This document shows, piece by piece, positions 39,806 to 41,327 of a stretch of 64,000 nucleotides of DNA. This DNA is from Escherichia phage vB_EcoM_G53: the sequence record MK327943.1, one strand, 5' to 3'. Made by a program: the position numbers and the translations under genes. The stretch's first letter is position 1, and the number at the start of each line of letters is the position of its first letter. The notes beneath the pieces were generated by a model. It made no database searches, was not told the origin of the DNA, and was given only the letters and a program-made list of their open reading frames with translations.

Positions 39806-40432
39806 TTATTTACGGGTTTTTGCATACTGAGCAGCGTCAGCAGCCAAACGACCTGCTTGTCGAAGTTTTTCTTTAATCTCATCATGAAGTGGTTGAGTAT
39901 ACTTCAAACCTTCGATAGTCAAATAAAGACGATAAAGGTCTGGGGTATCAAGGTTGTTGATATGTTGGCCATTACGAAGAATATTGAATTCACGAACGAG
40001 TGAAGACGTATCAGATTCAATATCACGAACAAGCGAAGATAGTTGTTTATATTTTTTTTCCAGGCTAGAAGTATCAAACTTAAGAGCAGGAGCTTTAGGA
40101 GTTGCTTTTACTTCCGGCTTAGGCTCAGGTTTTGCTACTGCTTTAGGGGTCGCAGGTTTAGGAGTGGTAGGAGCAGGTTTCACTTTAGGCGAACCAGATT
40201 TAGCAGAAACACCACCACTAACAATATCTTTGAATGCTTTAGAAGCTCTGTAATATTCTTTTTGGCTGGAAGTGTCGATACCGTACATGGCTTGAACGTT
40301 TTTGAAAAACTCTGTACTAGTTTTTGTACCAGAAATAGCATCGTAAGCAGCTTGCCATTTCTCTTTTGTCATACGTACACCGGCTTCGGTGATTACTTCC
40401 GTTTCGGCTAAAAATTCATTAAAAGTATACAT
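39806..40432 (-). CDS. Internal protein I-like protein (divergent capsid-targeting N-terminus, Pro/Lys-rich linker)
   Basis: 208 aa starting MYTFNEFLAETE; middle PKVKPAPTTPKPATPKAVAKPEPKPEVKATPKAPA; sits immediately downstream of the tRNA region, as ipI does in T4. Confidence 0.6.
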   Translation of the reverse strand: MYTFNEFLAETEVITEAGVRMTKEKWQAAYDAISGTKTSTEFFKNVQAMYGIDTSSQKEYYRASKAFKDIVSGGVSAKSGSPKVKPAPTTPKPATPKAVAKPEPKPEVKATPKAPALKFDTSSLEKKYKQLSSLVRDIESDTSSLVREFNILRNGQHINNLDTPDLYRLYLTIEGLKYTQPLHDEIKEKLRQAGRLAADAAQYAKTRK

Positions 40433-40467
40433 TGATGGTCCTTAGAAAGTAGGTTTATTGTTTACTA

Positions 40468-40475
40468 TATTTATA
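40468..40475 (-). promoter_or_regulatory. Late promoter TATAAATA upstream of the ipI-like gene
   Basis: Minus-sense TGTATAAATATAG about 35 nt upstream of the start; SD TAAGGA. Confidence 0.5.
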
Positions 40476-40505
40476 CAAAAAAGCCCCGACCTTTCGGAAG
40501 GGGCT
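40476..40505 (-). terminator. Rho-independent terminator-like hairpin AGCCCC-12 nt-GGGGCT followed by T6
   Basis: Minus-sense AGCCCCTTCCGAAAGGTCGGGGCTTTTTTG; terminates transcripts reading through the tRNA region. Confidence 0.6.
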
Positions 40506-40807
40506 ATATACCTTGTCGGGGTCCCACCTGCTAAGGCAAGTGTTTGTACGAAACGCCGGGATTCGAACCCGGTTATTAAGCAGTTGACGCTACTCAATAT
40601 TTTTAAAAGGCCATATCTCGACCATATCCGAACGTTCCGTCAAAAACGCTACTCGGCTTACGACAAAGATATTTCCTCGAATCGATAATTCTGTGCGCCG
40701 TTTCTGCTGTGATGTAAGGGGATATTAACAAATCGTAAAGATTTATTAAGACCAGTCCTTACTCAGGGAACATCAGTCCGACGTCTTGCCGGTAGCGACC
40801 CGGCTTC

Positions 40808-41152
40808 TTATTTTGGCATATCGTCAATTTGCTCTCGACGCCGACGCCATAGATTAATCGCTTCATAGGCACATTCTGCGTTTGGTATATGACGGCAATA
40901 ATATAATGATTCGCGTTTCTGGAACCGATGTTGCAACGGGATTTCGTTTAAAAGGTCTTTACGGTCAAAGTATTCAAAACTAGTTAACCCAGAACGGTTT
41001 TTAAGAAACTTCCAATGTCCGAATTCATTTTGAAAATAAACATAATCAGCATGCTGATACAGCGAATTAATTAACCTATCGGAAATAACTGTTTCACGTT
41101 CGTTAAAATAAAACGTTAAGTCATGAACTACCAGATAAATATTGCCTTTCAT
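40808..41152 (-). CDS. Hypothetical protein adjacent to the tRNA genes
   Basis: 114 aa from MKGNIYLVVHDL with SD GAGGAAAAT; the track ORF start would overlap tRNA-Arg. Confidence 0.55.
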   Translation of the reverse strand: MKGNIYLVVHDLTFYFNERETVISDRLINSLYQHADYVYFQNEFGHWKFLKNRSGLTSFEYFDRKDLLNEIPLQHRFQKRESLYYCRHIPNAECAYEAINLWRRRREQIDDMPK

Positions 41153-41170: not shown

Positions 41171-41247
<77 letters not shown>

Positions 41248-41253
41248 AATATA

Positions 41254-41327
41254 TGACCCAGACCAGATTCGAACTGGTAACCTTTCCCTTATGAGGGGAC
41301 TGCTGCTAACCATTGAGCTACAGGGCC
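41254..41327 (-). tRNA. tRNA with anticodon CAU (Met or Ile2-type)
   Basis: Manual fold: T arm ACCAG-UUCGAAU-CUGGU, anticodon loop CUCAUAA, acceptor GGCCCUG/CUGGGUC with one U-U mismatch, 3-bp D stem; 6 nt from tRNA-Arg. Confidence 0.6.

What the first reader, a model, noticed from the sequence alone, without database searches (positions are those of the whole stretch)
40548..40639. tRNA-like element with a perfect T-arm but no clean cloverleaf, downstream of the two tRNA genes
The minus-sense sequence ...CCGGG-UUCGAAU-CCCGG-CGUUUCG-U has a canonical T stem-loop and a 7-nt 3' acceptor strand that can pair with CGGAACG 85 nt upstream. That would make a 92-nt type-II-like tRNA, but I could not fold convincing D and anticodon arms by hand. 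It could be a divergent or degenerate tRNA, or a counterpart of the small stable RNAs encoded in the T4 tRNA cluster. The region 40506-40807 is otherwise non-coding and ends at a strong terminator.
Basis: seen in the sequence. Interest (0 to 1): 0.5.

Follow-up and report, generated by a model that had tools for sequence, protein, structure and literature searches.

The report
Phage T4 species 1 RNA ortholog
The "tRNA-like element" is the 3' two-thirds of this T4-type phage's copy of the long-known 140-nt stable RNA rnaC (species 1 RNA), a tRNA mimic of still unknown function, and comparison across phage genera gives it a well-supported fold.

Summary
The T stem-loop and 3' acceptor strand are real. 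The window is a Tequatrovirus, and 40545-40684 (minus) is the ortholog of T4/T2 rnaC (species 1 RNA, 140 nt). It lies after tRNA-Met, tRNA-Arg, an ORF and the rnaD ortholog, and before a hairpin and a terminator.

Thirty-one distinct homologs from about 12 Tevenvirinae genera, all 139-142 nt, show that CGUUUCG pairs with the RNA's own 5' end (CGAUUCG, 40684-40678).

The supported fold is a four-way junction: a 7-bp acceptor-like stem, a canonical T arm, a 3-bp D-like stem carrying a long bent arm of about 25 bp, and a 10-bp hairpin. The 6-nt loops of the long arm and the hairpin are complementary and covary in three states. A GG next to the D-like stem covaries with the T loop, as in a tRNA elbow.

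There is no anticodon loop. The 3' end is U-ACA, not CCA. ARAGORN and Rfam do not call it a tRNA.

The entity is already known and its function is unknown. My best reading is a tRNA-shaped handle for RNase P-type maturation joined to a loop-locked effector domain.

The parts
40545..40684 (-). Ortholog of T4/T2 rnaC (species 1 RNA), 140 nt: CGAUUCG...CGUUUCG-U-ACA. RNA position p corresponds to window coordinate 40685-p.
   Evidence: Alignment to T4. T2L annotates a 140-nt rnaC with the same ends. Covariance model hit of 163 bits, E 2e-37, the only one in the window.
40678..40684 (-). 5' strand of the acceptor-like stem (CGAUUCG). It pairs with 40549-40555 and carries a conserved tandem U-U mismatch at pairs 4 and 5.
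   Evidence: The third pair is A-U in the T4 type and G-C in the other genera. Tegunavirus CGGUCCG/CGGACUG pairs 7 of 7. The unconstrained minimum-energy fold gives the same stem.
40675..40677 (-). 5' strand of the D-like stem (AGG). It pairs with CCU at 40608-40610.
   Evidence: Invariant and 100% paired in 23 sequences. No covariation, so conservation supports it but does not prove it.
40614..40671 (-). Long arm: helices 14-19/66-71, 21-26/59-64, 29-32/54-57 and the tip stem 36-41/48-53, with a 3-nt bulge and small internal loops that act as a hinge.
   Evidence: Of 22 pairs, 20 show changes on both sides across types 1 and 2. Four do so within type 1 alone.
40638..40643 (-). Tip loop UUGACG, complementary to the hairpin-2 loop.
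   Evidence: Three covarying states in 31 variants with no mixed state. 100% paired in 23 sequences, with 2 pairs changed on both sides.
40611..40612 (-). Unpaired GG just 5' of the CCU strand. Candidate equivalent of tRNA G18-G19 that contacts the T loop.
   Evidence: GG occurs with a YUCRANY T loop in 26 variants. CG occurs with a UGCAU.. T loop in 5 variants from Kanagawavirus and Winklervirus. No mixed states.
40608..40610 (-). 3' strand of the D-like stem (CCU).
40600..40607 (-). A-rich single-stranded linker (UUUAAAAA).
   Evidence: Unpaired in all folds. The first three bases vary and an A-rich run is mostly kept.
40574..40599 (-). Hairpin 2: a 10-bp stem and the 6-nt loop CGUCAA (40584-40589).
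   Evidence: 7 of 10 pairs show changes on both sides.
40556..40572 (-). T arm: CCGGG-UUCGAAU-CCCGG, directly abutting the acceptor 3' strand as in tRNA.
   Evidence: Two pairs show compensatory changes (G-C to U-A, C-G to U-A).
40545..40555 (-). Acceptor 3' strand CGUUUCG (40549-40555), discriminator U (40548) and the ACA tail (40545-40547) in place of CCA.
   Evidence: T2L annotation. The tail is ACA, UCA or CCA among homologs.
40692..40811 (-). Ortholog of T4 rnaC's neighbour rnaD (species 2 RNA). Ends are approximate. Same transcript as rnaC, separated from it by a 7-nt spacer (40685-40691).
   Evidence: Alignments to T4 and T2L.
40525..40542 (-). Conserved 7-bp hairpin (CACUUGC-CUUA-GCAGGUG) between rnaC and the terminator.
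   Evidence: Fold. Conserved in T4, T2L, VR7, LHE83 and AV115.
40476..40505 (-). Intrinsic terminator of the tRNA operon: a G+C-rich stem followed by a U run.
   Evidence: The literature says transcription of the T4 cluster terminates after the species I gene (PMC2330249).
41171..41327 (-). tRNA-Met (41254-41327) and tRNA-Arg (41171-41247), the upstream genes of the same operon.
   Evidence: ARAGORN and Rfam.

Best explanation
WHAT IT IS. Positions 40545-40684 (minus strand) encode this Tequatrovirus's ortholog of T4/T2 rnaC (species 1 RNA), a 140-nt stable non-coding RNA.

SHOWN HERE. It is co-linear with tRNA-Met, tRNA-Arg, an ORF and the rnaD ortholog, and it lies upstream of the operon terminator. 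Its 5' and 3' ends pair into a 7-bp acceptor-like stem that abuts a canonical 5-bp T arm, giving a tRNA-type 12-bp minihelix. The rest of the RNA forms three further elements:
- a 3-bp D-like stem from which a long arm of about 25 bp with a hinge emerges;
- an A-rich linker;
- a 10-bp hairpin.
The 6-nt tip loop of the long arm (UUGACG) and the hairpin loop (CGUCAA) are complementary and covary. A GG beside the D-like stem covaries with the second base of the T loop, as in a tRNA elbow. There is no anticodon loop, and the 3' end is U-ACA rather than CCA.

INFERRED. The tRNA-like module serves as a maturation handle. RNase P cuts at C40684, as at the 5' end of a tRNA. In other genera the RNA lies directly between tRNA genes, so the neighbouring tRNA's processing frees its 3' side. 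Host exonucleases then trim to the ACA tail. The loop-loop lock makes a compact, nuclease-resistant particle. The RNA does not decode and is probably not aminoacylated.

MOST SPECULATIVE STEP (about 0.3). The mature RNA acts in trans as a tRNA-shaped decoy or scaffold for a host or phage factor that recognises the acceptor, T arm and elbow. The loop-locked arm would be the specific effector surface. Its biological role has been unknown since the 1970s.
For: Identity:
- About 95-97% identity to T4 and T2L rnaC, with the same neighbours.
- About 750 phage records carry it.
- Covariance model R1 scores 163 bits, E 2e-37, with a single hit in the window.

Fold:
- Unconstrained minimum-energy folds of 10 of 12 representative homologs from different genera give the same four-way junction, including the window (-44.6 kcal/mol, z -2.85). 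The two Marfavirus RNAs fold differently, although constraining the acceptor recovers the junction for one of them.
- On 20 type-1 sequences, 96.1% of cells are paired, 15 pairs changed on both sides, and 0 of 500 shuffles reach this.
- On 23 sequences including type 2, 94.1% are paired, 33 of 55 pairs changed on both sides, 0 of 500 shuffles reach this, and slid controls give about 40%.

Acceptor partner:
- The third pair switches from A-U to G-C.
- The two U-U positions become U-A and C-G in Tegunavirus.
- The rival 5' strand shows no compensatory change and three pairs that only break.

Loop-loop contact:
- UUGACG/CGUCAA occurs in 25 variants, UUGAUG/CAUCAA in 2 and UUGGCG/CGCCAA in 4, with no mixed state.
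- These pairs are not part of the covariance model, so fitting does not bias them.

Elbow: GG or CG against the T loop, with no mixed state.

tRNA likeness:
- Real tRNAs score 10-25 bits on R1 through the acceptor and T arm.
- In other genera the RNA lies next to tRNA-Trp or tRNA-Gly genes, usually with spacers of only a few bases.
- T2L annotates ends exactly at the acceptor's first base and at the ACA tail.

Length is fixed at 139-142 nt even though the long arm comes in two unalignable sequence types.

Literature:
- The primary transcript runs through the whole cluster and ends after the species I gene (PMC2330249).
- RNAC is detected by northern blot in T4 infection, function unknown (PMC9697503; PMC3014915).
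Against: - Nothing here measures the RNA. The ends, RNase P dependence and stability are taken from homology with T4/T2 annotation and from the literature.
- The trans-acting decoy or scaffold role has no direct support.
- The RNA is dispensable in some lineages. Two T4-like contigs carry an ORF in its place. Mosigvirus AV115 has deleted most of it.
- Two genera have lost the canonical T-loop sequence, so any partner that needs a T-loop motif cannot be universal.
- The acceptor carries a conserved tandem U-U mismatch and is only about 74% paired by standard rules.
- Covariation cannot tell an intramolecular loop-loop contact from an intermolecular one.
- The elbow covariation may stem from a single ancestral event.
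- Alignment A4 was fitted to the nested structure, which inflates its nested-pair counts.
Confidence: 0.85

Rival explanations
1. A divergent or degenerate type-II-like tRNA of 92 nt (40548-40639). CGGAACG would be the 5' acceptor strand, the hairpin would be a long variable or anticodon arm, and the A-rich linker would be a decayed anticodon loop.
For: - The 92-nt stretch alone folds that way.
- Rfam's tRNA-Sec model aligns end to end at 16.6 bits.
- The stem is 7/7 paired in the T4 type, and 7/7 Watson-Crick in contig L143. There ARAGORN even calls a 95-nt 'tRNA-Met' on the equivalent stretch.
- The stem is 92% paired across type-1 sequences.
Against: - There is no ARAGORN or Rfam call in the window.
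- The stem has no compensatory change, and three of its pairs only break when they vary.
- CGGAACG is held in a hairpin that covaries (U-G, U-A, A-U).
- Type-2 homologs lack this strand but keep the terminal stem.
- The full-length minimum-energy fold uses the 5' end.
- The annotated mature 5' end in T2L is the 5' end of the terminal stem.
- There is no 7-nt anticodon loop and no CCA.
Confidence: 0.03
2. Purely a cis-acting processing and punctuation element. Its tRNA-like shape would only recruit RNase P and exonucleases to process and stabilise the tRNA operon transcript, and the stable RNA would be a by-product with no function of its own.
For: - It always lies inside or at the end of tRNA clusters.
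- It is dispensable in some lineages.
- No phenotype is reported in the papers I could read.
Against: - In most genera it lies between genuine tRNAs, which already provide RNase P sites.
- Punctuation does not explain a fixed length of 139-142 nt, two different long-arm sequences with the same hinge geometry, or a loop-loop contact kept by compensatory changes in three states.
Confidence: 0.15
3. The two complementary loops pair between molecules rather than within one. The tRNA-like module would then be displayed on an RNA-only assembly.
For: - The loops are complementary to each other and not self-complementary, and they covary.
- The two arms are very unequal, about 25 bp against 10 bp, so an intramolecular contact needs a sharp hinge.
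- ROOL and GOLLD are phage RNAs near tRNA islands that multimerise through kissing loops. One ROOL quaternary kissing loop had first been read as a tertiary contact from covariation (PMC12286853).
- RNAs shorter than 200 nt can form kissing-loop oligomers (bioRxiv 10.64898/2026.07.01.735769).
Against: - There is no experimental indication.
- Both long-arm types place a bulge hinge about 16-17 bp from the junction, with about 10 bp beyond it. That would allow an intramolecular triangle (my geometric estimate).
- Species 1 RNA was historically purified and sequenced as a 140-nt species (my recollection, not checked here).
Confidence: 0.15
4. Short protein-coding genes, as many GenBank records annotate 'hypothetical protein' over this stretch.
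For: ORFs of 42, 51 and 76 codons overlap the region. Many records annotate CDSs there.
Against: - Substitutions come as base-pair-preserving doublets.
- Homologs differ by 1- and 2-nt indels, which would shift the reading frame of any ORF spanning them.
- T4 and T2L curators annotate RNAs there.
Confidence: 0.01

Closest known systems
Bacteriophage T4/T2/T6 species 1 RNA (rnaC; NC_000866 70908-71046; AJ880101 1812-1951)
   Same: Orthologous sequence with about 95-97% identity. Same 140-nt unit, same position after rnaD at the 3' end of the tRNA operon, and the same downstream hairpin and terminator.
   Different: Only a few substitutions, each keeping its base pair (for example C-G to U-G at pair 22:63). 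This phage, like T2L, has an ORF between tRNA-Arg and rnaD and only two tRNAs upstream in the window. The T4 RefSeq coordinates are shifted by 1-2 nt relative to T2L's.
Canonical tRNA (Rfam RF00005)
   Same: A 7-bp acceptor stem stacked on a 5-bp T stem with a UUCGAAU loop, and a four-way junction. A GG appears to contact the T loop. It lies in a tRNA operon, and its annotated 5' end is at the first acceptor base. Real tRNAs score weakly on its covariance model.
   Different: 140 nt long, with no anticodon loop. The D arm is replaced by a 3-bp stem carrying an arm of about 60 nt. The linker is 8-10 nt instead of 1 nt. The acceptor has a tandem U-U mismatch, and the 3' end is ACA. It scores below the tRNA thresholds.
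tRNA-like domain of tmRNA
   Same: An acceptor and T-arm minihelix whose other arms are replaced by non-tRNA structure. It is processed like a tRNA.
   Different: No G3-U70 pair in the supported stem, no encoded CCA except in Marfavirus, and no tag reading frame or pseudoknot ring. ARAGORN and Rfam are negative.
Bacterial Y-RNA-like YrlA (tRNA-like module). Comparison from my own knowledge.
   Same: A stable non-coding RNA that combines a tRNA-like acceptor, T and D module with a long helix.
   Different: In YrlA the RNA termini form the Ro-binding stem rather than the acceptor. No Rfam match here.
ROOL and GOLLD phage RNAs, and phi29 pRNA (the latter from my own knowledge)
   Same: Phage non-coding RNAs of unknown or structural role. 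ROOL and GOLLD are often found next to tRNA genes and are built around covarying loop-loop contacts (PMC12286853).
   Different: ROOL and GOLLD are far larger (GOLLD members often exceed 800 nt), are unrelated in sequence and have no tRNA-like ends. Multimerisation of rnaC is untested.

Membership tests
T4-type rnaC (species 1 RNA) | Sequence homology to the T4/T2 rnaC gene over its whole length | tested here: met
   Alignment A1. Covariance model R1 scores 163 bits in the window against 167 bits for T4. Same ends as the T2L annotation.
T4-type rnaC (species 1 RNA) | Location in the phage tRNA operon, downstream of rnaD and upstream of the operon terminator | tested here: met
T4-type rnaC (species 1 RNA) | Accumulates as a discrete stable RNA of about 140 nt in infected cells | not testable with these tools
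   Reported for T4 by northern blot (PMC9697503). Not measured for this phage.
tRNA (RF00005 / ARAGORN cloverleaf) | Detected as a tRNA by covariance model or cloverleaf search | tested here: not met
   ARAGORN gives no call. Rfam gives nothing at the gathering score, and the best match is tRNA-Sec at 16.6 bits against 47.
tRNA (RF00005 / ARAGORN cloverleaf) | Anticodon stem with a 7-nt loop | tested here: not met
   The only candidate hairpin has a 10-bp stem and a 6-nt loop that pairs with another loop.
tRNA (RF00005 / ARAGORN cloverleaf) | 7-bp acceptor stem directly stacked on a 5-bp T stem with a T-loop consensus | tested here: met
   Caveats: a tandem U-U mismatch in the acceptor, and the T-loop consensus is lost in Kanagawavirus and Winklervirus.
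tRNA (RF00005 / ARAGORN cloverleaf) | 3' CCA end and aminoacylation | tested here: inconclusive
   The encoded tail is ACA here, UCA in Tegunavirus and CCA in Marfavirus. Post-transcriptional CCA addition or charging cannot be tested.
tmRNA | tRNA-Ala-like acceptor with G3-U70, a tag-peptide reading frame and pseudoknots, detectable by ARAGORN or Rfam | tested here: not met
   ARAGORN finds no tmRNA. The Rfam permuted tmRNA model matches only the T loop at 10 bits. The third acceptor pair is A-U or G-C.

The most novel reading that the evidence does not exclude
rnaC would be a modular RNA. A tRNA-shaped handle gets it excised and stabilised by the host tRNA machinery. This particle would act in phage-host conflict as a decoy or scaffold for a tRNA-binding factor. 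It would be a small T4 counterpart of the tRNA-island RNAs ROOL and GOLLD.
Probability: 0.15. Interest if true: 0.7.

Novelty: already known. Interest (0 to 1): 0.35.

Why it matters
The entity itself is a rediscovery. Species 1 RNA of T-even phages has been known since the 1970s, and this window simply carries its ortholog.

Three points still matter.
- Its function is a 50-year-old open question (reviews still say "unknown").
- No Rfam family reached its threshold here, and many GenBank genomes annotate it as "hypothetical protein".
- The comparative model built here turns the question into precise mutational tests. That model comprises the terminal acceptor stem, the loop-loop contact in three compensatory states, the elbow-type covariation, the fixed 140-nt size with two interchangeable long arms, and the placement beside tRNA-Trp and tRNA-Gly in about 12 genera.

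The work also shows how a tRNA finder or a human reader can be misled by the internal CGGAACG strand. ARAGORN makes the same error on one homolog.

Tried and rejected
1. G3-U70, an alanine or tmRNA-like identity element.
2. The linker CCU-NNN-AAAAAU as an anticodon loop. The T4 type reads CUUUUAA, like tRNA-Lys, and other genera read UUG, CUU, UCU, UAC or UAU. I rejected this because CCU is paired with AGG and there is no closing stem. The triplet simply varies. ARAGORN's 'tRNA-Met' in L143 is the same artefact.
3. The hairpin loop CGUCAA pairing in trans with an invariant target. From memory, 16S rRNA contains UUGACG. I rejected this because the loop changes together with the tip loop.
4. rnaD as a decayed tRNA. 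No tRNA-model signal at E up to 10, no conserved CCA, and only a weak consensus fold.
5. Metagenome pattern scan. It gave 4 loci, of which 3 were chance matches and 1 a known type.
6. Bacterial genome pattern scan. It gave 91 pattern matches. The covariance model confirmed none of the 80 loci searched.
7. A badly specified pattern returned only chance matches and was ignored.
8. Anchoring on gene 1 protein to collect distant T4-like loci. It gave only 11 loci.
9. The classic papers (Paddock and Abelson; Broida and Abelson; Miller et al. 2003) are not held in the library. Statements about RNase III cleavage and precursor processing therefore rest on my memory or on secondary citation.

Full report
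OBSERVATION. On the minus strand the window reads ...UAA-CCGGG-UUCGAAU-CCCGG-CGUUUCG-U-ACAAACAC.... CGGAACG at 40639-40633 can pair with that strand. ARAGORN and Rfam at gathering thresholds find only tRNA-Met (41254-41327) and tRNA-Arg (41171-41247). A permissive Rfam scan of 40400-40900 gives a tRNA-Sec alignment of 16.6 bits against a threshold of 47, with E 1.6, and nothing else of note. A terminator-like hairpin with a U run closes the region.

WHAT IT IS. BLAST places the window in Tequatrovirus. About 800 phage records match 40440-40860, the best at 98% identity. The T4 reference annotates two "small, stable RNAs" directly after tRNA-Arg: rnaD (species 2) and rnaC (species 1). The window aligns with them base for base. 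The T2L tRNA-cluster record has the same order as the window: tRNA-Arg, ORF trna.2, rnaD, rnaC. It annotates rnaC as 140 nt, from the C of CGAUUCG to the A of ...CGUUUCG-U-ACA. By homology the window's rnaC is 40684-40545 (minus). Papers I could read say the T4 cluster is transcribed as one precursor that ends after the species I gene (PMC2330249). They also say RNAC and RNAD are seen on northern blots (PMC9697503) and that their roles are unknown (PMC3014915; PMC12685909).

WHICH STRAND PAIRS WITH THE 3' END. I collected homologs from the phage database and IMG/VR. This gave 31 distinct sequences from Tequatrovirus, Gaprivervirus, Dhakavirus, Kanagawavirus, Winklervirus, Moonvirus, Karamvirus, Tegunavirus, Gelderlandvirus, Marfavirus and unclassified contigs. 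All are 139-142 nt long.
- The 3' strand varies as CGUUUCG, CGUUCCG or CGGACUG.
- The RNA's 5' end varies in step as CGAUUCG, CGGUUCG or CGGUCCG. The third pair goes from A-U to G-C, and the two U-U mismatches become U-A and C-G in Tegunavirus.
It shows no compensatory change, and three of its pairs only break when they vary.
- That strand belongs to the tip hairpin GCGUUU-UUGACG-GAACGU, whose closing pair runs through U-G, U-A and A-U.
- Homologs with the second type of long arm (Melville, fGh-Ecl01, KLB31, MY02, Clarke) have no such strand at all but keep the terminal stem.
- Unconstrained minimum-energy folds give the terminal-stem architecture for 10 of the 12 representative homologs folded, including the window. 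The two Marfavirus RNAs (MY02, Clarke) are the exceptions; constraining the acceptor recovers the junction for Clarke but not cleanly for MY02.
The 5' strand of the tip hairpin (GCGUUUU) resembles the acceptor 3' strand (GCGUUUCG). ARAGORN falls into the same trap on one homolog, calling a 95-nt "tRNA-Met" inside it.

THE FOLD. RNA position p corresponds to window coordinate 40685-p.
- Acceptor-like stem: 1-7 with 130-136.
- D-like stem: AGG 8-10 with CCU 75-77.
- Long arm: 14-71. It has four helices, a 1x1 mismatch, a 2x1 loop, a 3-nt bulge and the tip loop at 42-47.
- Unpaired GG: 73-74.
- A-rich linker: 78-85.
- Hairpin 2: 86-111, a 10-bp stem with loop 96-101.
- One unpaired A: 112.
- T arm: 113-129.
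- Discriminator U137 and tail ACA 138-140.
On the MAFFT alignment of 20 type-1 sequences, 96.1% of cells are paired and 15 pairs changed on both sides. None of 500 shuffles reach this, and slid controls give 37-43%. A covariance model built from that alignment aligns type-2 RNAs at 69-93 bits. On the resulting 23-sequence alignment, 33 of 55 pairs changed on both sides, 94.1% are paired and 0 of 500 shuffles reach this. That alignment is fitted to the nested structure, so those counts lean towards it. The independent folds and the MAFFT-based one search do not share that bias.

TWO TERTIARY CONTACTS. The tip loop UUGACG and the hairpin-2 loop CGUCAA are perfectly complementary. In Tegunavirus they are UUGAUG and CAUCAA, and in Marfavirus UUGGCG and CGCCAA. 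Among 31 variants there is no mixed state. These pairs are outside the covariance model. Second, the base two positions before the CCU strand covaries with the second T-loop base. It is G with U in 26 variants. It is C with G in 5 variants from Kanagawavirus and Winklervirus, whose T loops read UGCAUGC, UGCAUUC, UGCAUCC or UGCAUC. The neighbouring G and the third T-loop base C are invariant. This pattern matches the G18-U55 and G19-C56 contacts of a tRNA elbow. It may reflect a single ancestral change, so I rate it as suggestive.

GEOMETRY (INFERENCE). The two long-arm types cannot be aligned by sequence. Both nonetheless place bulges about 16-17 bp from the junction, with about 10 bp beyond them, and the total length stays at 139-142 nt. 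That pattern fits selection on shape. A triangle of the proximal arm, the distal arm plus half of the loop-loop helix, and hairpin 2 plus the other half could close within one molecule. Covariation cannot exclude pairing between molecules. For ROOL, a kissing loop first read as tertiary turned out to be quaternary (PMC12286853). RNAs shorter than 200 nt can form kissing-loop oligomers.

HOW IT MOST LIKELY WORKS.
- Shown: gene order, fold and tRNA-type minihelix. Real tRNAs score 10-25 bits on the rnaC model through the acceptor and T arm. Outside the T4-type genera the RNA usually lies next to tRNA-Trp or tRNA-Gly genes, often with only a few bases between; in Marfavirus and KLB31 it follows the last tRNA at a distance.
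- Inferred: RNase P cuts at the first acceptor base, which is T2L's annotated 5' end. The 3' side is freed by processing of the next tRNA or, here, trimmed back from the terminator-proximal hairpin to the ACA tail. The compact fold makes the RNA stable.
- Not a decoder: it has no anticodon loop. The encoded tail is ACA, with UCA in Tegunavirus and CCA only in Marfavirus.
- Function: what the mature RNA does is unknown. I think a tRNA-shaped decoy or scaffold is the most likely role (about 0.3). A pure processing by-product is less likely (about 0.15), because it does not explain the conserved loop lock and size.
- Dispensability: two T4-like contigs carry an ORF in its place. Mosigvirus AV115 has deleted rnaD and most of rnaC.

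COMPARISON AND NOVELTY. The element is a member of the T4 rnaC family and is therefore already known. It works like the acceptor, T arm and elbow part of a tRNA but fails the tRNA and tmRNA membership tests. No Rfam family reaches its threshold on this region. No bacterial genome copy was confirmed. The fold, the loop-loop contact and the distribution across genera may be new as a description, but I could not check the old literature.

VERDICT. The 92-nt tRNA reading is rejected. The reading as a counterpart of the T4 stable RNAs is correct. Interest is modest at 0.35: a known RNA, but an old unsolved function that now has sharp structural tests.

Noticed in passing
window 40808-41152 (-): A 114-aa ORF lies between tRNA-Arg and rnaD, and its stop codon overlaps the start of rnaD. 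It matches PHROG 3355 (unknown function, E 3e-50) and corresponds to T2L 'trna.2'. T4 has no ORF at this position, where rnaD follows tRNA-Arg by one base.
   Followed up: partly
window about 40692-40811 (-): In the rnaD (species 2 RNA) ortholog, the 5' third (a CCGGGUCGCUACCGG hairpin plus GUCGUCGGACUGAUGUUCCCUG) and the 3' end (UCACAGCAGAAACGGCGCAC) are conserved. The middle is replaced by different hairpins in T2L-type and L012-type phages. It gives no tRNA-model signal and has no conserved CCA. A 2025 paper reports a convergent SNP in rnaD of phage BW-1 evolved on ECOR34 (PMC12685909).
   Followed up: partly
L138 (Escherichia phage AV115, Mosigvirus) 1451-1600: The annotated 'tRNA-Asn' is a hybrid. 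Its 5' three-quarters look like a tRNA. From GGTTCGAATCC onward it is 100% identical to the 3' end of rnaC, including the downstream hairpin and terminator. This looks like a deletion of rnaD and most of rnaC by recombination between a tRNA T arm and the rnaC T arm. The resulting acceptor stem pairs poorly.
   Followed up: partly
L046 14360-14729; L044 14398-15096: Two T4-like IMG/VR contigs with full tRNA clusters lack rnaC. L046 carries a small ORF between tRNA-Ser and tRNA-Gly, exactly where relatives carry rnaC. L044 has a 700-nt gap between tRNA-Met and tRNA-Gly that I did not inspect.
   Followed up: partly
L143 8491-8585 (-): ARAGORN calls a 95-nt 'tRNA-Met (CAU)' inside this contig's rnaC homolog. 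It uses the internal CGGAACG strand, which is 7/7 Watson-Crick there, and reads the linker UUCAUAA as an anticodon loop. This is a likely false tRNA call that automated annotation may propagate.
   Followed up: partly
L030, L031, L139, L140, L142 (Klebsiella Marfavirus-type phages): Their rnaC homologs encode U-CCA at the 3' end instead of U-ACA. They have the changed loop pair (UUGGCG/CGCCAA) and a tandem U-U mismatch inside hairpin 2. They follow tRNA-Met at a distance of about 70 nt and precede a CDS rather than a tRNA.
   Followed up: no
window 40440-40860 and many GenBank records: Many deposited T4-like genomes annotate one to three 'hypothetical protein' CDSs across rnaC and rnaD, and others annotate nothing. 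Only a few records (T4, T2L) mark the RNAs.
   Followed up: no
window 40468-40475 (-): A T4 late-promoter-like TATAAATA lies just after the operon terminator and about 35 nt upstream of the 208-aa ORF 39806-40432 (PHROG 2280, unknown function). The motif count in the window equals the chance expectation.
   Followed up: no
window 40525-40542 (-): A 7-bp hairpin with a CUUA loop lies between the rnaC 3' end and the terminator. It is conserved in T4, T2L, VR7, LHE83 and AV115. Its role (3' processing signal, or protection of the precursor) is unknown.
   Followed up: no
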